A stretch of 64,000 nt of DNA from Raillietiella orientalis (lineage: Eukaryota), in contig JAYWIR010000025.1 in NCBI GenBank assembly GCA_036172245.1, positions 2,914,001 through 2,978,000 on the forward strand, written 5' to 3'. Shown here piece after piece: positions 5,381 through 60,650 of the stretch. The position numbers and the translations under genes are program-made. The notes below the pieces were generated by a model that did no database searches, was not told where the DNA came from, and saw only the letters and a program-made list of their open reading frames with translations. Within the stretch, counting starts at the first letter, position 1. Every line of letters begins with the position of its first letter.

Positions 5381-7491
<2,111 letters not shown>

Positions 7492-8094: not shown

Positions 8095-8685
8095 TGATGA
8101 GGGGGAGGACATCCTATGAATCCAGGAAGGGGTCCGGAGAAAGGACTCCGTTCCCCCCACGCCTGGGAGCGACCCCGAAGGGAACTTCCGGTTTGTGGGA
8201 GCGCTCCTCATTTCTTTTCCGAAGGGAACCCAGAAAGGATCCGATACTCCCCGAAAAAGATCCGCTTCTTGTTTTCTTCTCTGAAGAGAATCCTGAAGGG
8301 ACAATTTCCTGAAGGGCGGTTCCCCGAAGGGAGCTTCTTGACACCTTGGAGAGGCATCATCAATCCACCAGCTCCATGGTACGAGATGGAAGGAGTTCTC
8401 CACGAAGGGGGGGGGGGGGGACGGCTATATTTGCACAACCGGAGGGGAACTTACAGGAAGCCGACTCCTTGGTTCCAGGAAAAGGAAAGGAACCAGGGAA
8501 AAAAGGGTCAGCTTCCAATCCCGGCCACTCAACGGAGTCACCTGGTTTCCGATTTCACCTGTGCTGCACCGAAAACCTGTAGGCTAACCAGCGTCACCGA
8601 AACCCACGAAGCACCCTCCATTTTTCGGTGTCGATCCTTTTGAGGGTATGATTCGAACCCGCAACGCTTGGTGCCACGGGTATTT
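8095..8685 (-). mobile_element. tRNA-derived SINE-like repeat, copy 1 (in the ADH5 palindrome spacer)
   Basis: B-box GGTTCGAATC on the minus strand (8650-8659), shared body with CCCGAAGGG sub-repeats, and family terminal motif CCTATGAATCCAGGAAGG (8113-8130). Confidence 0.75.
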
Positions 8686-11969: not shown

Positions 11970-14079
<2,110 letters not shown>

Positions 14080-32275: not shown

Positions 32276-32980
32276 TGAGGGGTACCACGGGAGGAAACCA
32301 CCCTATGAATCCAGGAAGGGCTCGGAGTCCGTCCCTCTGACGCCTGGGGAGGGATCCCCGGAATGGAGATCACCTCCACCCTGCTTGTCTTGGAAGGGGA
32401 CCCTGAAGGGAATGCCTTCCTTATTCCCTCCGGAGGGAACATCCAGTTTGTGGGGCCGCTCCTCATTTCTTCTCTGAAGGGAAACAGGAAAGGATACGCC
32501 ATTGGGAATTCCTTCTCCGCAGGGAACCTGCAAGGGAACCTCCCTGTTTTCTCGTCCTCCGAAGAGAACCCCAAAGAAACGCTTCCCGATTTCTCCCTGA
32601 AGAGCGCTCCTCGGAGGAAGTGGCACACTTCTCTGCACTCTCTGGAGAGGTACCATCAGTCCACCAGCTTTCATGGTGTGTATCAGCTTCTTTGCACAAC
32701 TGGAGGCGAACCCCGAAAGAAACCGGACTCCTTGATTCTGCTTCCTGGAAGGGCCCCGGAGGGTCGACTCCCAATCCCGGCCACTCATCGGGGTCAATCC
32801 CATCCGGCGCCGCCGCACCCGAATGAGTCGAGGCCAGCCAGAGTCATCCTGCAGGAGGAACTCTAACCCACAACGCACCCCTATCCCTCGGCGGCGGCGA
32901 TTCTTTGCGAGTATTCGAACCCGCGCCTCCTGGTGATGCCACGCGCCGAGACCTCAGCAGACACATGGCCTCCTCAAGGG
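32276..32980 (-). mobile_element. tRNA-derived SINE-like repeat, copy 2
   Basis: ATTCGAACCCGC at 32913-32924 and CCCTATGAATCCAGGAAGG at 32301-32319. The body is collinear with the other copies. Confidence 0.75.
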
Positions 32981-34356
32981 CAAAACCATCCCGAATCGCC
33001 TTCCATGTCCTCCCGAAGGACAATGGCTTTCGAGTATCCAGAAAATTCTGGGCACCCTTGCTATTTCGGCGGAACAGATGGCCGCGAGAGGGAGCACGCG
33101 TTCGAGGCGGAGGGGGAGACCTCCGTGGCGCAGCCAGCCCATGTTCGGAAAGACGAAGGGAGCTTCTTCAGTGCTGATCCGCGAGCAGAGGCTGCACTTC
33201 TTCTGGCAGTTCCGGTAGCGGGTCAACTTCGGGTCCGGGTGATTGATTTTGCTCCGAGGAAGAGAAGGAACCTCCGTGGGAGACACCCATTCGCATTCTT
33301 CGGTTCTCTGGAGAGCGCGTCAACCTTCGCCGCTCTCTGGACAGGTGCTGGGCAGAAGGCACCCTTGTCCGGCACAGGAAGTTGGTCACAGGAGGTTTCC
33401 TCTCCGATCCGGAGAATCTTTTGTGAGTGCCAAGAGGTTTTTTTCTCACTGCCTCTGGCGGCCGCAGGGATCCAGCACGGCCTCCGCCGCGATCCTCTGC
33501 TCAACGCGCCTCTTCCGCACGCCTTTTTCCTCCTCGAGATGTGCAGAATCCTTCCTCGAAGGTAACTTCTTGAAGCTGCGTGAAGTGCGCTTTTTTCACA
33601 GCTCTCCCATCGCCGAGCCACATTCGGTTTAGGAGAAGCCCGTTGTCTTAGAAATTCGGGTGACTCTCCCGACCCTCCTTTTCCACGACAGGATGAGCGT
33701 GGGGAGAGCTGGCACGGGGTGCCTGCTTCCTCGCAGCGACAGGCGGTGGGAGCCAAGGGACGACAGGAGCCTGCCCCCCAGACGTGCTGCTCCTTGGTCA
33801 AGAGGAGGAACTCCATCCACGAAGTTTCCGGTTTTCATCTCCGAGCCTCATGCGTGCCGTTCCGATCTGCTAGAGCCCTCCACTTCCGTTAGCGTCCGAC
33901 GCCCACCCTGACACGCTTCAGTTCACCCCTTGGCCCGGGGAGCGTTGACTGCCGATGAGATGAACGGGTTCGGAGGGCGCGCCCCCGCCGAGCCGCCCGC
34001 CTTCGGGGCTCAGGAGGAGGCGGAAGACCACACACGGGACGCCGAGCTTCCCGCGAAGGTTCCGAAGGAATTCCGGCGTCTTCGCGGAGAGGCATCCAGC
34101 GCTCCAATAGAAAGGGAAAGTGACAAAATCGGCGGCATTCCCCCGCGCAGGCAACCCGAGGGCAGCTTTTTATCTGATCCAGAGAACGTGACGCGCTCAT
34201 GATTTCTTCATTCTGTTTCTTCGAATACGGCATCTTCGCAAGTTCTTACGGAAAGTCGGAAGGAGGAACAGGAAGGTCGGCAGCCGACTCGAAACTCCCC
34301 ATTGCAGAGGGCGCTGTCTCCGGGATCGACGGCGAAGAGTGCCAGAGAAATATACA

Positions 34357-34943
34357 GCCGTCTCCGCGCGTGGTGCCAGGCGCTGCGGGTTCGAATCCCA
34401 GTCGGGGAAGAATCGACCCTCCGAGAAATGGAGGGAGCGTCGTGCGTTTCGTTTTCCCCCCCTCCCTCCCCCCCGCAAGAAGACGCTGGTTGGACCATTC
34501 GGTGAGGCGCTGTCAGAAGCCGTAAATCTCCGGATGTCCTCGTCGACTGGCCAGGATTAAGAGTCGACCCTCCAGGATCCTTCCAGGAATCAAGAGGTGG
34601 GTCCCTTCGGGGTTCCTCTCCGGTTGTGACAGTGGAGCCGTACCGTCACGTATCATGGAGCTGGTTGACAGCCTTCTTGGGAGGTCGCCTCTCTAGAGTA
34701 TCCAGAAGCGCGCTGCTCTCTTCGGGGAACCGTTCTACAGGGAAACGTCCTTTCAGGATTCTCTTAAGAGGAGAATGATGCAAGGAGCGGCTCCCTTCGG
34801 AGAAGAAGCGAGGAGTGACTCCCTTCGTCTCCCCTCCGGAGACGAACAGAGGTCGAGGGTTCCCTTCCAAGCGTAAGAGGAAATGACTCCTTCCTCCGGA
34901 GCCTTCCTGGATTCATAGAATGATTCCTCTGGGGTACCCCCCA
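34357..34943 (+). mobile_element. tRNA-derived SINE-like repeat, copy 3
   Basis: GGTTCGAATCCC at 34388-34399, CCCTTCGGG sub-repeats, and 3' end CCTTCCTGGATTCATAG...GGGGTACCCC. Confidence 0.75.
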
Positions 34944-39630: not shown

Positions 39631-40044
39631 CCAAATTCTTCCTTGATTTTGCAGACGTCTTGGGAGCAGCGAGATCGAAATCTCGAAGTCAGGAATAAGC
39701 GTTCTAGCATTCTAGGGATTGTTGGCGCGCCTTTACTTGATGCACACACATCTTTCCTTGATTGCAATTTGATTCGGATGGCGCGCGGCGTTTACTTCTC
39801 TGAGGAGAGGATCTTTCGAAAGGATCGCTTCTTAAGGTCCATGAATGTGTGTGTATATATTTTGTTTCCATAGCTTTTCGAAGGTATCCATCATTTTAAT
39901 AAGTCCACATGATCAATTACATTGGACTAAATTCAGATGCCTCTTAAGCTTGGAGTGGACCTGGATTTCGGTTTTGTGTCTCCGTGGATTGTTTGTCGAG
40001 GAAGAGTTCATTTGACATGATCGCATGTAGTCAATGCAATTTGC

Positions 40045-40410
40045 TCGCCTTGGGAACCGTGCGGCTGCCGTCTCTGCGCGCGTAGCACCAAGCATTGCGG
40101 GTTCGAATCCCACCCGGAGGAAACAGTCGAAGCCGAGAAATGGATGCGCCATGGGTTTCGAGTCCTTCATCCCGCAGGACGACACTGGTTGGCCCACGGG
40201 CTTCGGGTGTGGCACCGGTGGAAACCGTCTGCCTCGATGACTGCTCACCATTGAAGCCTAATCCTCCAGAATCCTTCCAGGAATCGAGGAGCAGGTTCCC
40301 TTTGACTTTCCCCTCCGGCTGTCAAGCTGGAGCCGTCCCCACCTCCTCGGTGGAGGAACCTCTATCGCGTACCATGAACTTGGTTGATACGTCTCTCCAG
40401 AATCCAAGAA
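40045..40410 (+). mobile_element. tRNA-derived SINE-like repeat, copy 4 (3' part missing)
   Basis: GGTTCGAATCCC at 40100-40111, followed by GAGAAATGGA, CTGGTTGG and TCCTTCCAGGAATC as in copy 3. Confidence 0.7.
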
Positions 40411-43400
40411 TAAATGTGTGTGTGTTTTGGACATGGAGCATGGTCGGTCCTTTTTAGCTACGCTGAGAGAGGAGCCTTCAGATCTAATCTTCTGTGCTTG
40501 ACAACATACGACGTACGGGTCGCAGCAAACTTACCTTTCGGGGCGGCATGGTATCCGCGAACTGTTGGAAGGAATGAACGAACCTTGTCCTTATAGCCTC
40601 TTTGTGTCTACGACTGGATGTCAAATCTGGGTCCAAGGGAGTTTGCTGTGTTTACTCGACTACCCTACTGGAAGGATCGTAGATGCTCCACACGGAGAAC
40701 AGCTGAAGTCCGAGTCCGTTTTTTGTGTCATGTGGCGTTAACGGTAGCTGTAGAGACATCCCTGGAAAAGGGTGGCTCTCTGCTTGCCCAGCACAGGACT
40801 GATGGCTCCAGTCTGCGGAGGCACTTCCCAAGTGCTGCTGCTCGTGCGGAGCGTTCCCCCAACGTTGGAAACTTCGCGATCCTCTTCAGACGTCGCCGCT
40901 TCTGCGAGGGAGAGAGGGAAGCGCTTCCGCGGCGGCGCTACGGTGAGGATGTGCGTGCTCTGTGCGCCGTCCGCTTGCGGGTGCAAAGTCTCCCATAGCG
41001 GGTAGGGAGGCAAGCGCCTTAGTGTCGCGCCCGGAACAGATTCTCCAGTCACGGAACCCCCCGGCAGGAATTTCTTCTCGCCGACTCTTGCAAAGTGCCC
41101 GCGTCCCAACGGACAGCACCGGAAGAGATGCGGAGGGCGCGGAGAGGAGGAAAAAATGCCCTTTGGAGAGATCGAAACTCGAAGGTCAGCACGTTTGGCT
41201 TCCGGGGAAAAGGCAAGTTCCCTGGAGGAGCGATCCTTGCAAAAGATCCTCTCCGACCCTCCCCCACCCTACCCCTTCCTCAGATCAGAGGGAAGTACGA
41301 GGGAGCTTCCCCTAGCGGGAGCTCCGGGAATCCGAGGAAACGGACAGCGGGAAAGGAAAATCCGGGTGCGAGTGAACGAGAAGTCTGATAGCAAGGTAAG
41401 TCACTGTTTCCTCCTGGAGGACCACTTCCTGGATCCTTGGGTGACTGGAGCAAGAAGCCCTTCGCCTTGATGATAAATTTGCTCCCAGAAACTTCTTTGC
41501 TCTTCTGAACGATGTGATGGAAATCGCAAATAGGGAACGAGCACTCTGTCTGCTTCTTTCCTCCAGGACTCGCTCCTGTGCCTTCTCCCCCGAAGGAAGT
41601 CGAAGCAGTATTCACATGAAGACTCAACACCTGAAGACTCAGTGCGGCCTCCAGAGACACCGTGCTTCCGTGCTGTCACCTCCCCATCGTGTCCCTCATC
41701 CAATTGGCTCAACCATTTCTGGGGACAGCATGACAACTACTGCCAAGTAGGTTCCGAGGGGCAGCAGAACGCCGAGAGGCAGTCTCGGCCCTTGGCACCT
41801 TAGAGGCGGTTCTCGCCTGGTGATGCGCGCGAGAACGAGTCTGCCATGACTGCTTCGGGCTCCATAAAGCCCCGTAAGGACACGTTCGCGCGCTCCGAGA
41901 CGCCCTTTGCATTCACTCCCTTCCTGGAAGGGTCGGAAAAGGTACCTGAGCCGCGCTCTAGCTCCGTGAGCTCGGTTGGCCGTGTCCCTCGTGCCCTCCT
42001 CCACGAGGGATCTTGGATTCCCTTCTCGTGGGTCAGAGGTGCAGGCGAAGTCTCCTGGAGAGGTTAGGGGCGAGGTGTAAGGTGTGTCGCGCGAATTTGT
42101 GCCTTCCAGGGCCTCCTCTGAAAACGCGACAACGTCAGGAACTGTGTGGTTTCTGCTTCTTGTTCAACAGTGAAGAAAAGTTGGCCCTGGAGGAAGTATG
42201 AGAGCCATAAATCATAGAGGACGCAGTCAATTCAGATGTCTGTTGAATTTCAAGGCGCTGCTTGATAACAGCGTTCGTTTTGGGTTGTAATAAACGTTAG
42301 AAGGAACAGCTAATAGTGGCTCCTACTAGGCGAAGAACGAAGAATGAATTGATTAACATTAATGGGACCCTTCATACGCCGCTCATGTGTCAACCACTGG
42401 CATCTGCGACCACATTTCTTTAAATCTCCTCAGTTTTCAAAAATGCCATTCTCCATCCACTCGGTTGTTACGACTTCGGTTGCCGCTTCCAATAGACCCT
42501 CTTGTCTTTTTGCCTTCGAGAATGTTCGATACCAGCCCGGTGGCTGATCGTACTGCTTCTTGCCCGTGGTGGCTTCCTGTTGAATCCCTCACTCGGGAGA
42601 CTCGGGCGCACCGCCAGCAGCTCGGGGCTCACGGAACCGTGGCTGCCGGTGCGTGATGCTGGAGTCAGGGTGGCCTGGATAAGGAGAGAGTGGGTTCCGT
42701 TCGGCAGGCTGCTAAGAGCTCCAACTCATGGGTGGAGTCGCACACGTCCAGCGAGCCTGACGAACGGAGAAAGATGGGGAGGAGCCGGCGTGCCGTTCGA
42801 GAAGTCTCGCTCTCCGAAGGGCAGATGTCTGCAAATCACCAACAACCCCAAGCAAAATCTTTTCCTTCCGCTTGTGTCCTGGCTGTCCGGGCGCAGCCCC
42901 CTTTCCGAAATCAATGGTAAGTTGGACGGATTCTCGCGGAAAATCTTGGGAAGGAGCATGGAGCATGTGGCTGAGGTGATGGCAGTCCACGGAAGTGTTC
43001 CAGAATCAATCCTGGGAAAGCGGTCTTACGAATCGCTGCCTCTTTATCTAGTTCTTCTCGTGTTTCTAATCAACGCTGCGCGTTTACTGAGGTAGTGTAC
43101 GGGAGCAGAACCGTAGTTCAAAATCCAAATGATGAGGAAATAATATCCATAATGTTCCTAGAGTATTAATAATAGAGGGCTTGAAGGGTTTGATGATGGA
43201 GATGATCAGCATGTTGCTCTCAAATAGGATATCCAATGTTGTTTGGGTTTGGGCCTGCCAGTTTGGGTTCCACAAGGATGCTGCTCACTGCGTTGTCCTC
43301 CCACTGCGCGGTCGGATCCTGTCTCTTCTTGGCAAAGAGAGCGCGGGCCCGTCTCGGGATCACGGGACGGATTAACGTGCAAGGTGAGGTATCATGAGGA

Positions 43401-48000: not shown

Positions 48001-50203
48001 GGGTGCATCCTTTGCATGGGGACGAGACTGCAGCGGCTGCAGCGGTCAAGCCGACCGGGAGTCATCTCACGCGCGACGGCGGCGGCGAACGGAGGAGTTC
48101 CGCTGCCAAAGAGATGCTCCTGGGACGGAGCACTTCGCGTGGGAGGGAAGGCGGTTTCCCCGAGGTTCGATGCCGGAGGCGATTCGCTGGAAAAAGGCGT
48201 GGTCTGCCTCTTGTGGCGTGCCATCGCTCGGCAGAAGGACTCGTTCCTGCGCTTGGTAAACCCTGTGCCCGGTAGGGTGTCCTTGCTGGGCTGTCTGGAA
48301 ACCTCCTCTCCTTCACCTGCTGCCTCTGCCCGCGTCTTCGTTGTAGTAGTAGTTGTAGTCTCTCTTACGCGCGGCGCCGCGCAAAAGGTCGTCCCAAGGT
48401 CATGAGGAGCCAGAGCGCGCCAATTCCTGAAACCTGGTCTGATCGGCTGCGGAAATCGCGTCTGCGGAGCTCACCGCGCCTGCGCGCGAGCAGCGCGTAG
48501 TGGCTCCCAGTTTCGCTGCAGTCTACCAATTTTCCGGGAATTGCCCGCGCTCGGGGTGACGACTCTGGGATTAGAGGCGCCGTCGATCCTGCTGCTGCTG
48601 CTTCTCGAATGCTCCTCCAGAGACAAAACGCAGCCAAAGCGGGAAATGAAGAACGGACTGGGGAATTCCAGGGCAGACTCAGGACTGCAAGGAGCTGGTG
48701 ACGTCAGCCACGCATTGAGGCTCGGGCAGACGCGCTGACGTTACCACCTACGTCGCTCTGCTCGCATCTTTCGGAAGTGGCACGCGCCCGATGCGGAAGA
48801 AGATTCATTGATTTATGGGGGACCGTCCCGTCTCCAGTTGCCAGGTTGGGGGCCGAGCCGACCTTTCGGTTTCGCTCTGGGGCTTTGGCTGCTTACCAGA
48901 AAGCACTGCCGCTTCAAACATGGCTTCAAGGCCTTGGCTCCCCCACCCCCAGTTTCTACGCATCCTCGATTGATAGCTGTACTCCAGCACGATTATTGCT
49001 AATTGAAAACTTCGCAAGAGAAGGGGGAGGTGACCGCCACCGACGACGCTACCACAACCATAGCCGCAACGGACATCAGGGAACCACGCGCTTGCCGTTA
49101 AGAGCGTGCAGGAAGCCCAGCTGCCGACTGCCCAGCCAAGCCAATCTGCATCTCGATGCAGCAGCTGAACCAGAGTGAAGGCGGTGGAGCCGGACATTTC
49201 GATGCGGGCGCGTCGGAAACATTCCTGTGGGTGCGTCCGCAAAGAGGTCTGCAGATGAGGTCGCCTCACATCTGGTCTGTTGCCTCAGAGGGGGATGTGT
49301 CCTTCCTTCGTCCACTCTCCACGAGGGTGGGCACGCTCGCGCCTGGGACCCATCTCCCGCACGGTTCGGCGTCCTCCAGTGCCGGAAGTGCGTGCGCGGG
49401 CCACGCTCGCGAGCGACCTCTCAAGGGTCCGGTGGAGGTCGAGTTACCGTTCGGAGAAAACCGCGAGATCGGCACGAGGAACGTGCTCTTTTGCGCTCAG
49501 GCTTGCGGGACAGCTGTTGCCACGCAACGCTTCTGAGGAGCGACTGCTTTCCTCACAGACTGCTACCTGAACGCTTCCAGCTTCACTGCTTGGCCCGTGT
49601 GGAATTTAAGGCAGGTCCTTTGGAATCGATCGGTCAGTAGCAGGAAACCAGGATGCATTCCACCCCTCTTCTTTGAGATCTGAAGATGCCTGTGGTGAAG
49701 ACGGACAGTTCAACCCTCTCTCCAAGCGGCGGGAGTCGGTGCTACATATGTTGCGTCGATGCCTTCCCTGGCAACTCTCGCCGGCACCACTGGGCCAGAG
49801 GAATCTGTGACGGGTGCCAGTGAGTGGAATCTGTCCCGCGCAAGCTAGTCGACTGTGCTGCCCTCCAGACAGTGTGAGAACTCCTCTTGGGGGGTCCTTC
49901 TGACGCAAGTCCCCGAAGACGTTGCCAAGAGCCTCTTCGTGCCGCCGCGTCCGCACCAGCCGTTTATTACCTTTTCTGGATCACGGAGGCCTGGAGAGAT
50001 AGAGCGAAGAGGAGGACGATGGAGATGTCGTCCCCTCCGCGCTCCTCTCCATGAAAGCAGAGACACGATGGGTCCACCTGGAAAGGTGAGGGTAGAGGAG
50101 GGACCTGCTGGCATTCTGGTCGGCATGCGGAGCGCAGGGCAGGACGGACAGCGACCTCTTCCTACTTCAGAGGGTGCAACTCACTCTTCAAGCTATAGGC
50201 ACT

Positions 50204-53200
50204 GACCCCATAGGGACCACCCTATGACCCCAGACAGTCTCCATCTTTTCTCCATCTCATCTCCTCGAGAGAAAAGAGGGTCCGCTCCTTTTGCACTTGG
50301 GAGGGAATTCCAAAGGGAAGTCTCCAACCTGGTTGTCTCCGAAGGGAACTCCCGGTTTGTGGGGCCGCTCCTCGTTTCTTCTCTGAAGGGAACCCAGAAA
50401 GGATCCGTTCCTGAAATTTCTTATCCAGAAGGAACGCCCTCAAGAAAACCGCCACTTGTTGGTGCTCCTTTGAAGAGAACCCCGAAGGGACGCTCCCAAA
50501 TTTCTCTGGAGAGCATTTCTGATCTTCTGAAGCAGCATCAACCAGCTCTACGGCACGCGATGGAGGGTTCTCTTTCGAAGGGAGGAATGGCTCCGGCTTC
50601 GAGACCGGAGGGGAACCTCGGAAGGAATCGATCCCTTGATCCCCGGGAGGACCCCGAAGGGTTTACTTCGATCCTGACCAGTCAACAGGAACATCCACTT
50701 CCGGAATCCACCAGTGCCGAAGCCTCGTTTCGCTCATCTAAGCTGCGGCTCCTCTTCAAAGGAGGAGAGCTACAGAGCATTGACAACTGGCGACCGATTA
50801 CCGTGATAAGTGCGAACGCCAGGTTGCTAGAGAAACTGTGGGCTGAATGTCTGGGGCGGGTAGCGGAAAGCTTCATTAGCCCGGGACAGCCGTAAGCTGT
50901 TCCTGGGCGGACCATGGGCGCCAACCTGTTCTGCCTTAATACCTGGTTTGCCCTCCAACAGGAAAGGGAGATGATGGGCAGCCGGAGCGTCCGTTGACCA
51001 GGAGGCTCTTCTGGAGCTGCTGGAACGCTTAAGCTTTCCGGACTAATTGCTGGCCTATCTGCGTTCCAGCTGGCGCCACGCGTTCATCAACATCTCTTTC
51101 AGCGGTCAGATGGTGCATGGCGTGCCGGTGCGACGCGGCATAAGGCAGGGTGACACCCTGAGTCCCCTGCTCTTTAGCACCTATTTCGCATTGGTGCTGA
51201 GAGCATACAGGGATACTCTGGTCTCCAGTCCCGGTTATGTCCGGATGCGCCTGCCATCTCAGTACACGCGGACGATCTGCTGCTGCTCCCCATGTTCACC
51301 CCATGCTCACTCGACGGCTTCTTTGAGTTGCTCAGCCGCGGGACGGACCCACTGCTAAACAGGGCGAAGTCGTCCGTGTTCCCGTTGGTGCGGCGTGGAC
51401 AGGGCTTCGGACTGGATTCGCCTGGGGATCCCCATGGGCCGACACTTGAAGAACCTCGCCGTTCCGTTGGGGGACTTCTGCTCCGCAGAAGCCTGGTCCG
51501 ACCGTCTTCAGAAAGCACTGCAGGCGCTCGGCCCGTTCCAAAAAGACGGGTTTTTCCTGCCAGAACGGGCTGCAGTGTGGAGCGCTTTCGTGGCCCCCCT
51601 CCTCTGCCCCTTGATTTTGCTTGCTCCCCGCAATGCAGCATCAGAAAGTGGAGAAAGGATCTCCTCCGGATAGCCCTCTGGGGCAAAGGGAGACCCCGAA
51701 TCTCCCTAAAGGACTTGTGTGCTCCGCTCTGGGACCGGCGGCCTAGGCCTTCTGACGCTGAAGCGAATGGAGCTGCAGCTCCAGTTTGGAACCGTTGCTC
51801 TCGTGGCAACCCTCAACGATCTCTCTTAACGACTGACGAATGCACCCTCTGTTCCGCAGGCAGGTGCACTCTGCCTCGCTTGTGCTGTTCATTTCACCCC
51901 ATGCGAAAACGGGAATCCTGCAGCCAAGAGGACGGAGATCCAGGGATTTCGCTGTACCAAAGCAACCATTTGGCAAAGTTGAGAACCAAGATGGTTCAAG
52001 CTTCGTTCGGTGGCCACGGCGATCGGAGTCAATCCCTCGCAGCCAGTTGCTCGTTTGGAGAGAATTCTCGCCGGAGAGCACGAAGGCGTAGTCCAAAGAG
52101 CATAGTCTAATGGAGCAACGCCAGGTGCCAACCTGCACGTCTTCTCGTGCAGCAAGCCACGGCAGCCTGGAACCCGCGTCCTTCCTTGCGCATCGGCCAT
52201 GCAGTCTCATCCGCTGTAAACTGCACCTGCGGTAGGTGGCCACGCTGGCTAGGAAGAAAGGATGGATCTCATACCACCCGGCGAGTGGTAGTGCATTGTT
52301 GAAGGAGCCAAGAGTGGAAGAGGTACGATGTTTCCTGTATGCGCACAACAGCAACTGCATGCTTCGGTAGATCCTAGAAGATCCTGCGAAGAGTGCATGG
52401 GCAAGCAGAACCTCCCTCGCTGCCGCACTGCCATCCCTTAGGGAAAAGGCAGCATCCTTAGGGCCAGATGGGAGGTTACTGTGCAAATCTCCGCAAAGAG
52501 AAAAGGACTAGATGAGTGAACGACGGACCAGCTCACTGACGCTGCGACCCCGAGTCCTCGACCCCATGGACTTTTGCGCTGGGACGTGCTACTGGGTATT
52601 CCAGAGGAAGACCTGCAGTGGCCTTCCGATGCTCATAAACACGCTTCTTCTCCCCTTAAAGTGGCAGGAGTCGGCGTTTAGGCTGCTGCACTAGGGCCTC
52701 CCGGGCAATGCCCACCGTCATCACTGGACGCGGGAGAGTATGGACCCAAACTGTGCCAGTTGCGGGCAGCGAGAATCCCACCTGCACCTCCTAGCGGACT
52801 GTATTGCCTTCTGATCCCTTTAGGGATATTTTGCTGCGACCCTTGGAATCTCCGCAGCAGCTCCAGACACGTTTTCAATCACCGTTTCCTGTGCGACGCC
52901 CTCACGCCGACCGCATTCTTAGCAGCACTTTGCTGCCCACGCGGCGGGACCGTGGCTGCATGGAGCAGCAACTCCAGAGGAGGCAAGGACGACAGGGACG
53001 CCATCTACTTTGCTGTCCTTTTCATGAGGACAGCTTCAAGATGGACCTATTTGAAGATCATAAAACAGGAACTTGCCGGCATCCTTAGAAGGATGAAGAG
53101 GACATCCTCCAGCACGCAGTGATGCCTTTCCAGACCCCCCATTTTTCTGACTGCATTTTTTGTTTTATTTTTTTTTTGTCTCTTCCTTTGTGCTGCCGAG

Positions 53201-53512
53201 GAGAAACTCCCCTGCTGGACAGCGTGCCAGTTCCCGGCAGGTTCCCCCTCGTAGTTATAAGTATTGTGGCAGGATCAAACGTCCTGCTACAGACGTGTCT
53301 GTTTATTTTTTATAAATAAACGCCCCGGAAAGACCGGGTGTCAATCAGAGCAGCACCCGAATAGGGAAACCAGCGCCACCATGCGTGGAGAAACTTGAAA
53401 CCCACAACGCATCCCCATTTCTCGAAGGGTCGATCCTTTCCCCGGCGGGATTCGAACCCGCAGAGCTCGGTGTCACGGGAGGAGACCGCAGCCAAACATC
53501 CGCCAGCGAGGG
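50204..53512 (-). mobile_element. tRNA-derived SINE-like repeat, copy 5, split by the LINE (body 50204-50719, head 53321-53512)
   Basis: On the minus strand the head reads TGGCGGATGTTTGG (A-box-like) ... GGGTTCGAATCCC (B-box, 53447-53459). The body matches copies 1 and 2 (GTTTGTGGGGCCGCTCCTC, CTCTGAAGGGAAC). Confidence 0.75.
50720..53320 (+). mobile_element. 5'-truncated, decayed non-LTR retrotransposon of L1/Tx1 type (RT, C-terminal zinc finger, 3' UTR), inserted in SINE copy 5
   Basis: RT motifs LLFKGG..IDNWRPITV, Q..VPGRTMGAN, GIRQGDTLSPLLF and (Y)ADDLLL across a frameshift. L1-like post-RT motif LWGKGRPRISLKDLCAPL/GGLG. CCHC finger CASCGQRESHLHLLADC at ~52773-52803. Stop at 53120-53122, and the 3' UTR ends TTTATAAATAAA. 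Several stops and frameshifts. Confidence 0.9.
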
Positions 53513-56395
53513 CAAGAGAAGGGGTCAGGAGCCAAATCTAAACCTTCGGCTGCATAGGTACTGCCCCCATCCCTACCTTGTCGAGCCACGAAGGGACCCC
53601 GCTCCTGGATGAGGGATCGTTCCCGGACGGACGTCTCTTGGAGCAGCCCGCGTTCGCATGAGCTGCTCCTCTCGCATGGATCTCCGTGGAGTGCTGCCGG
53701 CACGCTCCTCCCCTCCAGGATGCTGCGGGATTTCGTAGAGGAGTGGATGCCCGAACCTTTCCGGGAGAAACCCCCACTGAAAAATGCCTCGCTCTCGAAA
53801 GGGGCAACGGCAAACGAGGAGGCGGCGGCACGGAGGGAAATCTTCCGCGTAAGAAAGCATCCACCTCTGGTGAAAGGAATCAAACCGGCAGCACTCCCGG
53901 GCTCCAGAGGCAACCGTCCCTTGTCCCACGGCCTGCGGATCCGAGGAGCAGCCATCCGAGGACCATCGGAGTGCTGCCGCGAGAACGCGCTGGTTCACCT
54001 GGCCCGAGACACCCAAGCTGCTCGGGTAGAACCTTCCCGGAAAGTTCCTTTCTCCTCCTCGGCGCTTCCGCCCCCGTCTACCCATCCACAACCCGTGCGC
54101 GCTCACGTTCCGACCCAACGGATGGACGTTCCGGGCGGCGGTTCCGAAAGCGCGTCGCGGGAGGAAGATCAAGGGTGAGCCGTTGTCCAGATCTTCGGTT
54201 TGTCCGGCTCGTGAAACGCCGAGTCATCCGAGTGATGTCGGACAACTGCCATGTTTCCTCCGGTCCCACTTTAAAATCTCCACAAATCACTTCGACCAGC
54301 TTCTCCTCCTCCCCCCCCCCTTTTTTTCCTCCTCTTTTTCCTTTTTTTTTGTCTGCAGAAAGAGGATTCGCGGGTTTCCGCTTTTTGCAAAAGATTTATT
54401 GCCTTTTGTTCCGCCAGACAACAGAGAAGAAGATTCGTCAGAATTCTTCCCCCACTCTTTCCTGTCTCTCCATCACGTGTCATCTCCTTGATGCGGAGCA
54501 CGCTGCAGCTTCCATCCCGAAAGGAAGGACAGAATTTATGGCTCAGGTTCGGCAGCATCCGATTCCGAGCAGCTCTCGGCAGAGGATATGCGAAAGGAGG
54601 GAGTGAAGGGAAAGGAGGACAACCTGAGGGGCGACGTCCGGAAGGACATCTGTCATTCCTCCTCCTTCCCGAGCGCGGCCGGGAACGATTTTCGGGCCTC
54701 TGCCGTTCCAGGGATTCTTCCGCATCCATTCCGCACTTCGTCGTCGCCGTGCAGCTTTCGAAAGCCTCGGGGGCGGGGGAGAGCTGAACAAGGGGTGACG
54801 TCACCGTGTCAGGCCAGCAGCGGCGAGAGTGGTCCGCGCCCGCTGCCTAATGACCTGAATTTTGTTGTCCGCCAAGACCAGCTCTCTCCGGGATCCCCTT
54901 GTCGACTGTTTTTGTTTGTCTGCATGGGCACCGGGATTTTGGGAAGGGATCAGACAGTTCCGCTCTGAAGGATCTTCCAGGCGCTTTTCCGGAAGCGGCG
55001 GTGATCTGCGGACGGTTTTTTAGAGGCACCCTCCCTGCATCCCACGCACTGCGGATCCGAGGGACAGCAACCAGACGGCTTCCCCTGCCCCGCTCCCTGT
55101 TTTCGAGGATCCCTTTTCGTCTTGTCAGAGGCAATCGAAACCAACGCTTTCTTCTTCCCGGATGTCCCGAGCGGTGAAACCGAGCGTCCACGAGACGATA
55201 CTCGCGGCCTTCTTTCCAGGTTCGAGGCGACCGGATTTTTCCGCCTGGAGGCAGCAGCAGCGGCAGCTCCGTTTCCAGGAGTTTGGAGGGCGAGAGATGT
55301 CGGAAGTGCCCCCGCGAGAGGGGGTGGGTGCTTTCGCTCCCGCTAGAAATGTGCCTTTCACTCGCTGGAAGATTTTTTCCCCTTTTCTTTCTTTTTTGTT
55401 TTTGGCGCCTTCCCTTCGGCGCCGAGTCGGGATCGGCCACGCCTCCGGAAAACCTGACTCACGCCCCGGAGTCCTCACCGTTTCGGCGGCTGTCCTGAAC
55501 CTTTCCTCCGACAGCTGCTAAGGAAGGGGATCTGCAAGCCAACCCTCCACCCTCTCCCAAGATCCTGACCCTGCGCACTCTCGATCTAGCAGAAAGTGGG
55601 AGCGGCCCCACCTCCCAGTGGCTTCTCGGACACTGGCGTAGGTCGCCGTCGGTAGGTCTTCTGTCCCTGGATGGGCAACCGGTTCAGCAGCAGGGAGGAG
55701 TTCGTTGCCCGGGACGTTCGGGGCCGGAACCATCCGGGATGCATCAGTCCCTGCATGGGACTCTCTGTTGATGGTCGAGCTGCCCCTTATGGGGTCGAGC
55801 TGCTACAGGAGCGTCAGAGACTTCCTGTCTCCCCGCTTGCAGTTTCTCTGCCTCCCGAACGAAGTCCCAAGGCCTACTGGGAAGAAGCAACACAAGTCGA
55901 GGTCTTTGGATGCGCTTCTGGACCGGCCGTCACCTCTTAGACAGCCAGTTCGGCCATGGGGTGCAAACCCACGAGAATTCGTTGCTAAGAGACGCGTCGC
56001 GGAGTCAGTTGAGCGACAAAGCCACCGCGGCAGGCGGATGAACCCAAGCTCGCTACTGAACGTAAGGATCAGCAGGTGCTGTGATGAGGGTGGAGGGAAG
56101 GTCCAGAGGTGATTTTAGAGGAGAGAGCTTTCTCCGTGCGAACAAGACGGGCCGGAATGAGTCGCGCTTCGGCCCTACGCATCCCGTTGGCCTGAGGTGC
56201 GTCTTGCCCTTGCTGCCACGTTGAATCGTGCGGTTTCGCAGAACCCGGAACTTTCATCTGACCACCCCAAGCTCTTGGTTCTCCAAGACGAGTTCCCAAA
56301 GAGTTGGCAACTGCGATGATCGACTCGGGAGAGTCGGAACGGACCAAATCGCTCACCAGAGACGCACACCTCCCCTCCCTCCAGAGGAGCCGTCG

Positions 56396-56426
56396 TAATA
56401 AATAATAATAATAATGATAATAATAA
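56396..56426 (+). repeat. Imperfect (AAT)n microsatellite
   Basis: taataaataataataataatgataataataa. Confidence 0.8.
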
Positions 56427-56910
56427 ATGAGACATGGAGAAAAGCAAAAAAACCTGTGAGCCAATGAGAATTCGAGCTCTGCCCAGACTCCAGGCGAAGC
56501 AGCGAAGTGGTCACCTGTCAGGAAAAAAAGAAAAGAAAAAAAGAACGCACCAAATTTGCACGTCGCCGTCACACTGGGCGACACCTCCCTACATGATCCG
56601 TCTGCGTATTCCACAGCTCGATTCTGGCTGCATCAAGGCGCTCTGCGCGGGCGGCAAGATCTTTCGACGTGTTGGGTCTTGGGTGAGTGCCGGGCACTGC
56701 GTTGAGGTTCCGTGATGATGATGGAAATCCTTTTCGGGCTCTTCTCTGCTTTCTCTTTTAGCCTTTTTTCTTTTTCCCCTTCGGGTTTTCTTTCCTTTTT
56801 GGTTCGCAAAGTGCTGAAAAAGAACCGTTCGCCTTTTTAGGGGGGGCTCACGAAGTTCCTCAACGCTCTCCACGCCGCCACCCGAAGGTGTGCGTAGCTC
56901 TTCAAGTTTT

Positions 56911-57912
56911 GGGATGCACCCAGGGAGGTGACCACCCTATGAATCCAGGAAGGCTCCGGAGGAGGAAGGAGTCTGTTCCTCGCTCATTCGCTCTCCCTTA
57001 TTTCATCCGAAGGGACTACCTAGATGTGACCGCTCCTTGTTTCTCCTCCAGGGGAACCCGGGAAGGATATGCTCCTTGTTTCCTCCTCTGTAGAGAACCC
57101 CGAAGGGAAGCTCCCAAATTTCGCTAAAGGGCAGTTCCCCGAAAGGAGCAGAGCGCTTCTTGGCACTCTGGGGAGGAAACCCCCCCAAGGGGAGAAGATG
57201 GCTCCATTTTTACAACCGGAGGGGGACCACGAAGGGCTCCTTGATTTCTGGAAGGACCACGGAGGGTCAACTTTTCATCCCGGCCACTCGACGGGGTCAT
57301 CTGGCTTCCACCAGTTACGCCCTCACGCCGGCTGACCGTATACCTAGCAGCACTCTGTTTACGCGGCGGGACCGTGGCTGCATGGAGCAGCAACTCCAGA
57401 GGAGGCAAGGACGACAGGGACGCCATCCACTTTGCTGTCCTCTCCATGAGGATGGTCATATCAAGATGGTCCCATCTGGAAGTCTGGAAATAGGAACTTG
57501 CCGGCAACCTCACAAGGATGAAGAGGACACCCTCCAGCACGCAGTGATGCATTCTCGAGCCCCCCCCGTTTTTTTGACTGCATTTTTATTTTTTTTTCTT
57601 TTTGTTTGCTTCCTCTTCCCCTGTGCTGCCCAGGAGAACTTTGCTGGTCTGAGTGCCAGTTCCCAGCAGGTTCCTCCTCGTTGTTATAAGGAACATGGCA
57701 GGATCAAACGTCCTGCCATAGACGTTCATATTTATTTTTTATAAATAAATGCCCCGGCGTGACCAATGCCGTCGCACCCGAAGCCTGAAGGCTTTATCTG
57801 AAGGAAGGAGAGGACTCGAAACCCATCTCGGGGCCGATCCTTCTCCCGGCGAGATTCGAACCTGCAACGTCTGGTGCCACGGGCGGAGACTCCAGCCACA
57901 CGGCCGCCAAAG
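56911..57912 (-). mobile_element. tRNA-derived SINE-like repeat, copy 6, split by the short LINE (body 56911-57315, head 57750-57912)
   Basis: CCCTATGAATCCAGGAAGG at 56935-56953, ATCCCGGCCACTC shared with copies 1 and 2, and B-box GAGATTCGAACC at 57851-57862. Confidence 0.75.
57317..57749 (+). mobile_element. Short 5'-truncated copy (3' end only) of the same L1/Tx1-like LINE, inserted in SINE copy 6
   Basis: Aligns with 52896-53320 (GGGACCGTGGCTGCATGGAGCAGCAACTCCAGAGGAGGCAAGGACGACAGGGACGCCATC is shared exactly) and ends at the same TTTATAAATAAA. Confidence 0.9.
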
Positions 57913-57949
57913 TGCATGTTGCTCGTGTCGATGACATGAGAAACATGAT

Positions 57950-60650
57950 GAATAGCTGACCATAGCAATCAACTGCAGCAGATCACGCCAGTTATAACTG
58001 GGCATTGGTGAGTTCGACCAAGTTGCCTTCTCCTTGCAAAACTCCCAGTTCGCCACCACAACCCCTGAAGGAGGGAGCGGCAAAGGCAGACGGGCTCGCT
58101 GTAGGCCTTTCCACCATAAGCGGGTATTCGAGGGAACGTGGATGTTGCGCATGCGGATCGCACTGCGTTTGGTGGATGAAGTGGAGCAACGTCTGAGGAA
58201 ACGTCACGATGACCTCAGTCAATCGCACTTCAGGATTTTGAAGCTGAACTGGATGCCAGCTCCAGCAAGAAATAGCACGAGAACCTCCTCGCCGCGCTTC
58301 CGCGGCTGCTTGCGAGTCGAAGTGAAGTCTGAGGGCATGCCTGAGTTTCTGAAGGTCGCTTGAAACTGTACGCCTCCGTCGACGCCGAACCGCATTGTTC
58401 CGTCGGTTGTGGGTTCCAACCAGTCCATCTCAGGAAGTACAAAGGGAGCAACTGGAGCACTTCACGAAGCTGCTGCTGCCGCTGCAGCTTTCGTTTTTCT
58501 TTTTTTTGCATAAGAACGCCCGGTCGCAATTGCCACACTCCTTGACTTCTTTCCTTCCTCGAGGAAGAAATTTCGACCTTCAAGATGCTTCTTGAAAACC
58601 CTCTGAGGATGTTCTCCTCCTCATTTTGCTCTCAAACCAACTGCCATTTCTTCCCACTTCTGCTTCCTCGGGTCGGTGCTCCCTTATTCTGGCTTACCAG
58701 TTGCTTTCTTACAACGAGCACGCATCCTGTAATTGCCGGACCTTGAAGTGGGTGCACCCGTTAGCCACACAGCCCTTTCCATGCAGCGCAGGATCACTGA
58801 AACTCCATACGAAAAAAGGGAACACTTTCTCTCAAAAGTGTGGCTCATGATCCTCGGCAGTGGATCCTCATCGGGATCCGCAGTTTGAAGTCCTCTCGTA
58901 AATTCATTCTTTCGGGAGTACCCATTGAAAAGATCAACTTTGTTTGTTCGGAACACACTCTCATGGATTCTGTAGTTTCTTCTTCTCCGGAGGGAACCCT
59001 GTTTTCAGTGTGAAAAATGGCTACGTCGCCTTCCGGTATTTTCTTCTGTGTGCCTCCAGAATACTGGATGCTTATGTAGGCCTCTCCTTCATCGTGCTGT
59101 CTCCCTGTCTGCTTTTACAGGATCTTCAGTGTCAGTCTCCAAATCCCACGAACCCAAAGATCCAGCGCTGATTGTCTTCCCTGCAGTCAGAAGGGATCTC
59201 CTCTAAGGGAAAGGGAAGGAGTCAGTCCCGGCAACTGCTCTCCTTTTCTGCCTCGCGTCTTCCATCGTCTCGGCGGAGTGTCCTCTTGCGTTTACCACTT
59301 CTACGGTGATGGCCACAGCCTCTTCTGTAGTATCAAATCCGGTCTCATCTACCTGGAAACCATTCTTGAGATGGACTGGTTGAAAGACACGGTTTTCCAT
59401 GGTTTAATGGTGCCCTTCGAGATTCTTCCAATGAATCCGTTGATATTGTGGTTCGACAGTCATCGCACTCCTTTCCTTGGTGATTGCAAACCCCGCTGGT
59501 CGCAGGAACGCTTCCTTTCTTTGCAGAGGTGTTTCCCCTTCCTCGTGTCCTACTAATTTTGAAGGTATTCAGATGCTGGGCTACATTGGAGGAGTCATTT
59601 CCTTCCAGATGGTGCTTCGCCCATTTCCTTCACGCTTGCTCTTTGGTTCTTCGTTCGTTTTGCTTTGGGGTATTCCAGGAAATGGGGACAACGTTTTGAA
59701 GGTGTTTTCGTTATTTTTTGGAATCCGTCGCATCGGCTGCTTACTTGTGGTGTCTTGGTGTTTCTTGCACTGTGCCAATTAGAAGTTTCTTTTTGCTTTC
59801 CTTTTTTGACCCATTTAAGCCGATGGTTTGCTTTGTTTGCCAGCGTGATGTCAACGTCGGTGCATGCTGAATTTTTTTTTCCACTGGCTGACCCATCCAC
59901 TGCTATTCCTCCCATTTGAATGTGGTAGGTGGTGATTCTGTGTTGGTGTCCGGTGGACAGCCCAACTTTTTCTTTGCCACTGGATTGTGCTTCTTGTGAA
60001 TTCTCTCTTTTATCTCTCCTTTCCCACTTCCTCGAATGAAGGACATTCTAACTTGCTCAGTTATTGAGTACGCTGGAAATGTCTGATCTTCCTTCTGTTC
60101 AGAACATGTTCGCTCTCTAAAACCTACGGATTTAAGACGAATCAACCACTCTCTGGATCTTTTCTTGGGGTGAATCTGGTGAAAGCTGCACAGAGCTCCA
60201 AATTCTGGCGCATTGGGACGATTCTTGTAACGGAGAGGTTCAGGAAGAAAAGATGCTGGAAACGGTTATGGCAGACATGGCAGCGTTGGAGCATGTTCTG
60301 CGAAATGGTGACCTCTGACTTTGAGTGCACGAGAGGGACCTGAAAGAGCAGCTGCAAAGTTGTGCATTTTTCAAGAGTTTTCCTGCGAAAATCGCGAAGC
60401 CGCGAGTCCCGACTCTCTGGCTGCTGCAGCCAGCATCCGAAATGACACCTGCCAAGGAGGAGTAGAAAGAAGGGACGACTGGAAAAATGACCTTTCCGAA
60501 ACCAGAGTTCAACCTTGGCCGGACGACTCCGCATCCCGGTGAACAAAGGAGGACCGTGTATCCTGCCCGTATACCAGGTGGTACTCCAAGACCCAGGCCT
60601 ACCATTTCGTTGGTCACTATCAAAATCATCGCTGCCGCAGCAGTTTGGGA
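57950..60650 (-). mobile_element. Heavily decayed 5' half of an L1/Tx1-like element (ORF1-like and endonuclease-like remnants)
   Basis: RIHGPPL../LNSGFGKVI and QRCHVCHNRFQH (ORF1 zinc-knuckle-like, ~60250-60570). GDVAIF, VDLFNGYS and SQGVWQLRPGVL resemble the L1 endonuclease and its GxWKLN linker (~58520-59030). All are frameshifted. Confidence 0.35.

What the first reader, a model, noticed from the sequence alone, without database searches (positions are those of the whole stretch)
50204..57912. Candidate sequence-specific L1/Tx1-like retrotransposon that targets a tRNA-derived SINE
Seen: two copies of one LINE (50720-53320 and 57317-57749) share the same 3' end (TTTATAAATAAA) but have different 5' truncation points. 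Both lie antisense inside a copy of the same SINE family, at the same position about 100-130 nt downstream of the B-box. That position is a motif that uninterrupted copies read roughly as TTCCACCRGTGCYGCACCCGAA (for example 8554-8573, and the reverse complement of 40201-40224). Each insert has a degenerate duplication with copy-specific bases: ccggaatccaccagtgcc (50701-50718) / ccggaaagaccgggtgtc (53325-53342), and ctggcttccaccagt (57301-57315) / ccggcgtgaccaat (57754-57767). Known: Tx1-group elements use an AP-type endonuclease to insert at fixed sites in multicopy targets (Tx1L into a DNA transposon; Keno into U2 snRNA genes; Dewa near tRNA genes). A fixed 3' junction with variable 5' truncation is the hallmark of target-primed reverse transcription. 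Inference: these are independent site-specific insertions that use an abundant SINE as a safe harbour. I am not aware of such a SINE-targeting family, but I cannot check the databases.
Basis: partly seen in the sequence, partly recalled or inferred. Interest (0 to 1): 0.85.

Follow-up and report, generated by a model that had tools for sequence, protein, structure and literature searches.

The report
LINE inserted twice at one SINE site
Two decayed copies of one L1-type retrotransposon sit, apparently through separate insertion events, at the same spot and in the same orientation inside two different copies of a SINE, which suggests a target-specific LINE of a kind already known for other repeats.

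Summary
LINE copy E (50720-53320) and copy F (57317-57749) share a 3' end and have different 5' truncation points. Each lies antisense in a copy of one ~700-bp SINE with a B-box head. Their 3' junctions fall at the same SINE position and their 5' junctions about 3 nt apart. Four other SINE copies in the window are uninterrupted there.

- The SINE halves around E and F are 64.8% identical (355/548). The LINE tails are 85.1% identical (355/417). Fisher p = 5e-13, and transversions alone show the same gap.
- E and F are not sister SINE copies in the tree, although the AU test does not reject that grouping (p = 0.078).
- No similarity extends beyond the SINE ends.

So two independent insertions at one site is the best reading.

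The element belongs to the L1 superfamily. Tx1 membership could not be tested. Family-wide specificity rests on 2 of 2 scorable copies, because no genome, sequencing run or related contig could be obtained.

Tx1-clade families that target other interspersed repeats are already published, so this would be a new target type, not a new principle. Interest is moderate.

The parts
50201..50719 (-). SINE copy E, 3' (tail) part, to the left of the LINE insert
   Evidence: nhmmer SINE profile positions 187-694. Aligns with the uninterrupted copies A-D.
50720..53320 (+). LINE copy E. It is 5'-truncated at the start of the RT domain and decayed by frameshifts and stops. It runs through RT, the C-terminal CCHC knuckle and the 3'UTR, and ends in TTTATAAATAAA.
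   Evidence: weak RVT_1, E 0.0014, below Pfam's cut-off; 53% identity to P0001.
52752..52802 (+). C-x2-C-x7-H-x4-C zinc-knuckle motif in the C-terminal part of ORF2 of copy E
   Evidence: Read directly in the frame-2 translation. tblastn places P0157 residues 995-1028 on 52698-52802, 40% identity, E 3e-4. Pfam zf-RVT was not detected in the window copy.
53123..53320 (+). 3'UTR of LINE E. Includes the hairpin at 53266-53290, which is 57695-57719 in copy F.
   Evidence: RNA folds of the last ~120 nt give z -4.4 (E) and -5.4 (F) with the same three hairpins. The base of hairpin 2 differs by a G-C to A-U double change.
53321..53597 (-). SINE copy E, 5' (head) part. B-box at 53451 and an ARAGORN tRNA-like call at 53436-53514.
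50701..50718 (+). Left copy of the degenerate target-site duplication of insert E. The right copy is 53325-53342.
   Evidence: 11/18 identical ungapped. Head and tail pieces overlap on the SINE profile at positions 187-213.
53325..53342 (+). Right copy of the duplication of insert E. It is preceded by CGCC, so the flank starts CGCCCCGG.
56916..57316 (-). SINE copy F, tail part
   Evidence: nhmmer profile positions 199-694.
57317..57749 (+). LINE copy F. Only the last 433 nt remain (end of ORF2 and the 3'UTR), with the same 3' terminus as E.
57750..57985 (-). SINE copy F, head part. B-box at 57855. The flank starts TGCCCCGG, and the right duplication copy is 57754-57767 (left copy 57301-57315).
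8103..8756 (-). Uninterrupted SINE copy A (empty target site around 8540-8573)
32283..33002 (-). Uninterrupted SINE copy B
34282..34933 (+). Uninterrupted SINE copy C
39981..40560 (+). Uninterrupted SINE copy D. Its empty site at 40202-40223 has one mismatch to TTCCACCGGTGCCGCACCCGAA. The tail beyond about 40560 is not homologous.
49715..50130 (+). Third, older LINE-related fragment G, matching E at about 52650-53100. It has no recognisable 3'UTR and abuts the 3' end of SINE E, so its insertion site cannot be scored.
   Evidence: nhmmer E 2.3e-14 with E as query and 2.1e-6 with the tail profile. Alignment.

Best explanation
A stringent-type non-LTR retrotransposon of the L1 superfamily inserted twice, in separate events, at one defined position of an older, abundant SINE of about 700 bp with a B-box head. 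Both inserts are antisense to the SINE.

The likely mechanism is target-primed reverse transcription started by a sequence-specific nick.
1. The element's endonuclease nicks the strand that primes cDNA synthesis at a fixed point. On the LINE-sense strand this is just 5' of GG(A/C)(A/T)TCCACCRGTGCCGCACCCGAA, a site that contains the palindrome CACCGGTG.
2. Reverse transcription starts from the structured 3'UTR.
3. The cDNA is left incomplete at a different point in each event, which gives the different 5' truncations.
4. The second strand is cut 13-24 bp away, which produces the short target-site duplication.

Shown here: a common 3' end, different 5' ends, the same SINE position and orientation, overlap of head and tail on the SINE profile, SINE backbones much more diverged than the inserts, and conserved 3'UTR hairpins.

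Inferred: an AP-type endonuclease (both copies lack the 5' half), that this endonuclease sets the specificity, that the preference holds across the whole family, and that the SINE acts as a harmless landing site.
For: 1. Same element, common 3' end, different 5' ends. E 52896-53320 and F 57317-57749 are 82% identical by BLASTN and 355/417 by MAFFT. E starts at about ORF2 residue 500.

2. Same site.
- nhmmer puts the head pieces' ends at SINE profile 213 and 211 and the tail pieces' starts at 187 and 199.
- Both 3' flanks begin YGCCCCGG.
- Both 5' flanks end in CCACCAGT plus 4 nt (E) or 1 nt (F).
- Four of the six SINE copies are uninterrupted at this site.

3. Independent events.
- E-F identity is 355/548 (64.8%) in the SINE flanks against 355/417 (85.1%) in the LINE, Fisher p 5e-13.
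- Transversions alone are 14.8% against 4.8%, p 2e-7, with similar CpG observed/expected ratios in both.
- In the six-copy alignment E-F identity is 65.5%, lower than E-C (69.2%) and F-A (70.3%).
- In the ML tree E groups with C and D, and F with A and B (support 87/89). E+F form a clade in 4% of bootstrap trees.
- Self-BLAST shows no similarity between the two loci outside the SINE and LINE.
- A deletion origin of F would need a breakpoint within about 4 nt of the old SINE/LINE junction.
- The bases after CCGG/CTGG are copy-specific in each duplication pair: AA/AA in E and C/C in F.

4. Divergence between the two LINE tails is clustered. The longest perfect run is 67 nt, and 0 of 20000 permutations reach it. 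This fits differences between source elements rather than uniform decay after a duplication.

5. L1-superfamily identity.
- P0001 is 53% identical to the window's read-through translation, E 1e-55, and has RVT_1 at E 4.7e-24.
- Its best solved relative is human L1 ORF2p (E about 1e-39), against R2 at 7e-17.
- Of the 12 proteins scanned, 8 carry Exo_endo_phos and 8 carry zf-RVT.

6. The 3'UTR folds give z -4.4 and -5.4 with the same hairpins in both copies.

7. Precedent. Tx1 families target other interspersed repeats (PMC4494074, passages read).
Against: - Only two scorable copies exist, and they lie 3.3 kb apart.
- No genome-wide tabulation was possible.
- The AU test does not reject E+F as a clade (p 0.078), and the SINE tree is star-like with no starred branch.
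- The duplications are degenerate (11/18 and 10/15). In E, about 10 extra nt sit between the right-hand duplicate and the rest of the SINE.
- Both 3' flanks share GCCCCGG, whereas the uninterrupted copies and each insert's own left duplicate are T-richer at that place. This could be identity by descent rather than a LINE-borne terminus.
- There is microhomology (GTGCCG against GTGCG) between the E left junction and the LINE sequence just 5' of F's truncation point. This would also allow a deletion origin for F.
- A third LINE-related fragment (49715-50130) is not in a recognisable SINE site.
- No endonuclease domain is present in either copy.
- Pfam RVT_1 in the window copy is below the curated cut-off (18.8 against 29.6 bits).
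Confidence: 0.66

Rival explanations
1. The LINE has only a loose or short-motif preference, for example for a GC-rich palindromic or structured site. The SINE position is then one of many possible targets, and two hits in this window overstate the specificity. The family would not be SINE-specific genome-wide.
For: Only 2 scorable copies exist. The third fragment G (49715-50130) is not in a recognisable SINE site. The site contains an 8-bp palindrome, CACCGGTG. Crocodilian Tx1-Mar families use two unrelated hot regions within one transposon (PMC4494074 passage).
Against: The 3' junctions coincide to the nucleotide, and the 5' junctions differ by about 3 nt. This occurs in a SINE that fills only 6.3% of the window, so chance is about 2e-4 by my estimate. 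GCCCCGG occurs 5 times in the window, yet only the two at the SINE site carry a LINE.
Confidence: 0.2
2. A single ancestral LINE insertion into one SINE was followed by local duplication of the composite. An internal deletion then removed 2177 nt of LINE from the copy that became F.
For: The two composites are neighbours (3.3 kb apart) in the same orientation. Both have the identical 3' junction, AATAAA + YGCCCCGG. There is GTGC(C)G microhomology at the putative deletion ends. The AU test does not reject E+F as a clade (p 0.078).
Against: - The SINE flanks are 64.8% identical against 85.1% for the LINE (p 5e-13), and transversions alone show the same gap (p 2e-7). A duplicated block should show equal divergence throughout.
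- E and F are not each other's nearest SINE copy.
- No similarity extends beyond the SINE ends.
- The deletion would need a breakpoint within about 4 nt of the original junction.
- Mismatches in the LINE are clustered rather than uniform.
Confidence: 0.08
3. Pure coincidence: a non-specific LINE landed twice in the same SINE position by chance.
For: The finding was picked after the fact from a very large scan. SINE copies are locally dense, with 6 in 64 kb.
Against: The probability is about 2e-4 for the second hit alone, by my estimate. The target is GC-rich and does not resemble the A/T-rich sites of non-specific L1 insertion (recalled knowledge).
Confidence: 0.04

Closest known systems
Tx1-clade target-specific LINEs that insert into other interspersed repeats: Tx1L into Tx1D (piggyBac), Tx1-Mar into Mariner-N4_AMi, Tx1-9_AMi into Harbinger, Tx1-8_Crp and Tx1-4_AMi into LTR elements (Kojima 2015, PMC4494074, passages read)
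   Same: An L1-superfamily LINE sits at a fixed position and in a fixed orientation inside a multicopy mobile element. The 3' junction is fixed and the 5' truncation varies. The idea of a 'harmless' multicopy target also applies.
   Different: The target here is a SINE (a retroposon) with a B-box head, not a DNA transposon or LTR element. Tx1 clade membership is untested. The evidence here is 2 copies, against dozens to hundreds in the published cases. The nearest proteins apart from P0001 and the 132-aa fragment P0007 (70% over that fragment) are only 24-38% identical.
Keno (U2 snRNA genes), Mutsu (5S rRNA genes) and Dewa (spacer of tRNA-Leu), which are target-specific elements of zebrafish and other animals (PMC3706591 passage; PMC4494074 passage)
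   Same: Sequence-specific insertion into multicopy Pol III-type or small-RNA-related sequences.
   Different: Those targets are functional gene arrays. Here the target lies about 100-130 nt downstream of the B-box, in the non-tRNA body of a dispersed and decayed SINE.
Human LINE-1 ORF2p (PDB 8c8j, 8uw3, 8sxt)
   Same: It is the best solved relative of the RT of P0001 (E about 1e-39 over residues 3-397). ORF2 is colinear, and there is a C-terminal cysteine-rich motif.
   Different: Human L1 ends in poly(A), has relaxed 3' recognition and inserts at loose A/T-rich sites (recalled knowledge). This element ends in TTTATAAATAAA without a poly(A) run, has conserved 3'UTR hairpins, and sits in a GC-rich site.

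Membership tests
Non-LTR retrotransposon (LINE) | Encodes a reverse transcriptase of the non-LTR type | tested here: met
   Read-through frame 1 gives RVT_1 at E 0.0014, below Pfam's cut-off. It is 53% identical over 95% of the query to P0001, which has RVT_1 at E 4.7e-24. tblastn places P0001 residues 108-483 on 50704-51726.
Non-LTR retrotransposon (LINE) | Copies share the 3' end and differ in 5' truncation; flanked by target-site duplications | tested here: met
   The common 3' end and the different 5' ends are clear. The duplications are present but degenerate: 11/18 and 10/15, with profile overlaps 187-213 and 199-211.
L1 superfamily (L1/Tx1: AP endonuclease + RT + C-terminal CCHC) | N-terminal AP-type (Exo_endo_phos) endonuclease | not testable with these tools
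   Both window copies and P0001 lack the 5' part. Of the 12 proteins scanned, 8 carry Exo_endo_phos, but they are only about 30% identical.
L1 superfamily (L1/Tx1: AP endonuclease + RT + C-terminal CCHC) | RT closest to L1-type RTs rather than R2 or other types | tested here: met
   In the PDB search, L1 ORF2p scores E 7e-40 to 5e-39, against R2 proteins at 7e-17 or weaker.
L1 superfamily (L1/Tx1: AP endonuclease + RT + C-terminal CCHC) | C-terminal CCHC zinc knuckle | tested here: met
   The motif C-x2-C-x7-H-x4-C is read at 52752-52802. A colinear tblastn hit places P0157 residues 995-1028 there. Pfam zf-RVT itself was not detected in the window copy.
Tx1 clade | RT groups with Tx1 reference elements in a non-LTR phylogeny (RTclass1/Repbase) | not testable with these tools
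Named hits are generic, and the one hit named 'Transposon TX1 ...' is a plant protein named by similarity.
Tx1 clade | Target-specific insertion (more than 20% of flanks are one sequence type; criterion in PMC4494074) | tested here: inconclusive
   2 of 2 scorable copies in the window are at the SINE site, and a third fragment cannot be scored. No genome-wide data were obtainable.
tRNA-derived SINE (SINE2) | Head derived from a tRNA with Pol III A and B boxes | tested here: inconclusive
   The B-box word GGTTCGAA is present in 6 of 6 copies. ARAGORN calls a tRNA-like gene in 1 of 6 copies. Rfam gives no tRNA match at gathering score in the window, nor at E<=1 on the E head. The A box is only partly recognisable by eye.
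tRNA-derived SINE (SINE2) | Short, dispersed, multicopy, non-autonomous; 3' tail shared with a partner LINE | tested here: inconclusive
   There are six dispersed copies of about 600-720 bp, 64-70% identical among five of them (lower against copy D). No similarity between the SINE tail and this LINE's 3' end appears in self-BLAST, so this LINE is not evidently the SINE's partner. Coding capacity was not tested.

The most novel reading that the evidence does not exclude
This is a so-far undescribed L1-superfamily lineage in a poorly sampled eukaryote. It is strictly specific for one position in the body of a SINE with a B-box head. Its RNA carries a few target-derived nucleotides at its 3' terminus, seen as the shared YGCCCC(GG) after AATAAA in both copies. 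These nucleotides would anneal to the nicked SINE and fix the 3' junction, as read-through does for rDNA-specific elements. If so, this would be the first LINE family whose dedicated landing site is a SINE.
Probability: 0.3. Interest if true: 0.55.

Novelty: new variant of a known kind. Interest (0 to 1): 0.4.

Why it matters
If family-wide specificity is confirmed, SINEs would join the multicopy targets that sequence-specific LINEs use. The known targets are rDNA, snRNA, tRNA spacers, microsatellites, DNA transposons and LTR elements. The case would also provide a GC-rich, partly palindromic recognition site for an AP-type endonuclease, and so a further example of how target specificity shifts within the L1/Tx1 group. 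It would show one retroposon class parasitising another's copies as neutral landing pads. It does not open a new principle, because the behaviour is well documented for other repeats. The evidence here is two copies.

Tried and rejected
Genome-wide test of 3' flanks (could not be done)
- No whole genome is held for this window.
- The look-up of sequencing runs listed no run, so read laying could not be used.
- The metagenome scan with the 3'UTR hairpin 20-mer gave one contig, L001. It is a bacterial small heat-shock (Hsp20-like, my reading) gene with a terminator hairpin, so a chance match.
- The search for related loci with P0001 in genome contigs gave only L002, a 26%-identical LINE fragment in a Rickettsia MAG contig.
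- The search for related loci in viral contigs returned no locus.
- Two further pattern scans of viral contigs found nothing.
- The search of earlier findings by genome and by sequence returned nothing.

Naming relatives and finding the host
- The third protein search, with the MutS_V fragment, gave one unnamed hit at 43% identity.
- The Atlas look-up gave only bacterial MutS clusters.
- The host organism therefore stays unknown.

Readings considered and rejected
- Composite SINE+LINE amplified as one unit. Rejected because the two inserts have different 5' ends against the same SINE junction.
- Gene conversion spreading the insert between SINE copies. Rejected because it cannot create the novel left junction of F.
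- Uninterrupted SINE copies as clean deletion derivatives of a larger element. Rejected because all four would need exact excision, and because E and F show duplication of the site whereas A-D have it once.
- This LINE as the SINE's partner. No tail similarity was found.

Other negative results
- TRF finds no internal tandem array in the SINE body.
- Literature searches for a LINE family that targets SINEs found no such report in the held library.

Full report
**What is there**

The window looks eukaryotic, with split ADH class III exons and a MutS_V fragment. Its GC content runs from 38% to 60%.

A self-BLAST and an nhmmer profile define one repeat family of about 600-720 bp with exactly six copies:
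- A 8103-8756 (-)
- B 32283-33002 (-)
- C 34282-34933 (+)
- D 39981 to about 40560 (+)
- E, split into 53321-53597 (head) and 50201-50719 (tail), both (-)
- F, split into 57750-57985 (head) and 56916-57316 (tail), both (-)

All six carry the B-box word GGTTCGAA near their 5' end. ARAGORN calls a tRNA-like gene in one of them, at 53436-53514. Rfam finds no tRNA match at gathering score in the window, nor at E<=1 on the E head. 'SINE with a tRNA-like head' is therefore plausible but not proven. Five of the copies are only 64-70% identical to one another, and copy D is more distant (49-59%), so the family is old.

**The inserts**

E (50720-53320, +) is a decayed non-LTR element.
- Its three frames show RT motifs, a C-x2-C-x7-H-x4-C knuckle at 52752-52802, and a 198-nt 3'UTR.
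- A read-through of 50975-51640 is 53% identical (E 1e-55) to P0001, a 619-residue JGI protein. P0001 has RVT_1 at E 4.7e-24.
- tblastn with full-length relatives shows that E begins at about ORF2 residue 500 and runs colinearly to the C-terminus.

F (57317-57749, +) is the last 433 nt of the same element.
- BLASTN gives 82% identity to E over 441 columns. MAFFT gives 355 matches, 62 mismatches and 23 gap columns.
- Both copies end in TTTATTTTTTATAAATAAA.

The last 120 nt of both copies fold far better than shuffled controls (z -4.4 and -5.4). They form the same three hairpins, and a G-C to A-U double change sits at the base of the middle hairpin. This is what a LINE that recognises its own 3'UTR would show.

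A third, older LINE-related fragment, G (49715-50130, +), matches E at about 52650-53100. It has no recognisable 3'UTR and abuts the end of SINE E. It cannot be scored for its insertion site.

**Same site**

- On the SINE profile, the head pieces of E and F end at positions 213 and 211. The tail pieces begin at 187 and 199. Each insert is therefore flanked by a short duplicated stretch of the SINE.
- In LINE orientation both 3' flanks start YGCCCCGG and then run into ...GCACCCGAA.
- Both 5' flanks end in CCACCAGT plus 4 nt (E) or 1 nt (F).
- Copies A-D read straight through this place. D matches TTCCACCGGTGCCGCACCCGAA with one mismatch.
- The LINE is on the plus strand and the B-boxes are on the minus strand, 127 and 103 nt away.

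With SINE sequence at 6.3% of the window, I estimate about 2e-4 for a second random insertion to land at the same position within +/-2 nt in the same orientation.

**One event or two?**

- If one composite had been duplicated, the LINE and its SINE flanks should be equally diverged. They are not. Identity is 355/417 (85.1%) in the LINE against 355/548 (64.8%) in the flanks, Fisher p 5e-13.
- Transversions alone give 4.8% against 14.8%, p 2e-7. CpG observed/expected ratios are similar in both compartments, so CpG decay does not explain the gap.
- In the six-copy alignment E and F are not nearest neighbours: E-F 65.5%, E-C 69.2%, F-A 70.3%.
- The ML tree puts E with C and D, and F with A and B (support 87/89, not starred). 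E+F form a clade in 4% of bootstrap trees.
- The AU test does not formally reject the E+F clade (p 0.078). I report this as evidence that stays open.
- Nothing outside the SINE and LINE is shared between the two loci.
- Deriving F from an E-like copy would need a deletion whose left breakpoint falls within about 4 nt of the old junction.
- Mismatches between the two LINE tails are strongly clustered. A 67-nt perfect run is reached by 0 of 20000 permutations. This fits divergence between source elements rather than uniform decay of a duplicated block.

Points on the other side:
- The two loci are neighbours.
- They share GCCCCGG right after the LINE, whereas other SINE copies are T-richer there.
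- There is GTGC(C)G microhomology at the ends of the putative deletion.

On balance I read the data as two independent insertions.

**What kind of LINE**

- Among solved structures, P0001 is closest to human L1 ORF2p (E about 1e-39), well ahead of R2 (7e-17).
- An exhaustive HMMER search of 1.84 billion representatives found 328 proteins at E<=1e-30. Apart from P0001 itself and a 132-residue fragment at 70%, the listed hits are 24-38% identical.
- Of the 12 proteins scanned, 8 carry Exo_endo_phos and 8 carry zf-RVT. Named hits come from ticks, lizards, frogs, plants and fungi.

The element is therefore a distinct lineage of the L1 superfamily. Neither window copy contains an endonuclease domain.

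**Mechanism proposed**

A sequence-specific nick at the SINE site primes reverse transcription from the structured 3'UTR. The cDNA is left incomplete at a different point in each event. Second-strand cleavage 13-24 bp away yields the duplication.

The junction geometry and the independence of the two events are shown. The endonuclease, its specificity and the 'safe harbour' benefit are inferred. The shared YGCCCC after AATAAA could be the true end of the LINE, target-derived nucleotides carried by read-through RNA, or identity by descent. Two copies cannot decide between these.

**Comparison with what is known**

Passages of Kojima 2015 (PMC4494074) state that many Tx1-clade elements are target-specific:
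- Tx1 inserts into the piggyBac-type Tx1D.
- Keno inserts into U2 snRNA genes.
- Kibi and Koshi insert into microsatellites.
- Crocodilian Tx1 families insert into Mariner-N4_AMi, Harbinger transposons and LTR retrotransposons, at fixed positions and in fixed orientations.
- The paper uses a 20% flank criterion to call a family target-specific.

A passage of PMC3706591 gives Dewa's target as the spacer of tRNA-Leu. My three searches of the held library found no report of a LINE family whose target is a SINE. Repbase and Dfam could not be consulted. A SINE target would therefore be a new variant of a known behaviour.

**What could not be done**

The decisive genome-wide table of 3' flanks could not be made.
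- No genome is held, and no sequencing run was listed.
- The single metagenome scan returned a chance bacterial match.
- The genome contigs and viral-contig scans returned nothing related.
- The host remains unidentified.

**Verdict**

Independent insertion at the same site is well supported. Family-wide SINE specificity is likely but rests on two copies. Tx1 membership is untested. Interest is moderate.

Noticed in passing
window 5348-7494 and 11967-14102: A 2.1-kb inverted duplicate at 99.4% identity. It carries exons of a class III alcohol dehydrogenase (ADH_zinc_N at 5577-6074 on the minus strand; an [14 protein letters not shown] exon at 13527-13883). It may be a recent inverted duplication or an assembly artefact.
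   Followed up: no
window 49715-50130 (+): An older fragment of a related LINE, matching E at about 52650-53100 with a decayed CCHC region. It ends where the ORF2 stop would be and directly abuts the 3' end of SINE copy E, as if the SINE had landed in or next to it.
   Followed up: partly
window 53321-53328 and 57750-57757: Both LINE 3' ends are followed by the same YGCCCCGG. Uninterrupted SINE copies, and each insert's own left duplicate, are T-richer at that place. It is unexplained: it could be the LINE terminus, read-through target sequence or shared descent.
   Followed up: partly
window 31101-31340 (+): A MutS domain V fragment with a THFHELT motif (Pfam E 3e-14). Its best database relative is only 43% identical, which suggests a poorly sampled host lineage or a pseudogene.
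   Followed up: partly
window 2958-3439 and 44550-45029: A 486-bp repeat, 92.6% identical, in inverted orientation and 41 kb apart. It belongs to another, younger repeat family.
   Followed up: no
window 19544-19636 / 20616-20710 and 28769-28959 / 29163-29349: Two pairs of close inverted repeats (87% and 80% identical, about 1 kb and 0.2 kb apart). They may be the ends of small DNA transposons.
   Followed up: no
window 52939-53005 and its counterpart in copy F: A 67-nt stretch at the end of ORF2 is identical in E and F although the tails differ by about 15% overall (0 of 20000 permutations reach this run). This hints at a constrained RNA or protein segment in the source elements.
   Followed up: partly
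L001 1097-1116: The LINE 3'UTR hairpin 20-mer matches exactly an intrinsic-terminator-like hairpin after what reads as a small heat-shock (Hsp20-like) gene in a bacterial metagenome contig. This is a chance match.
   Followed up: yes
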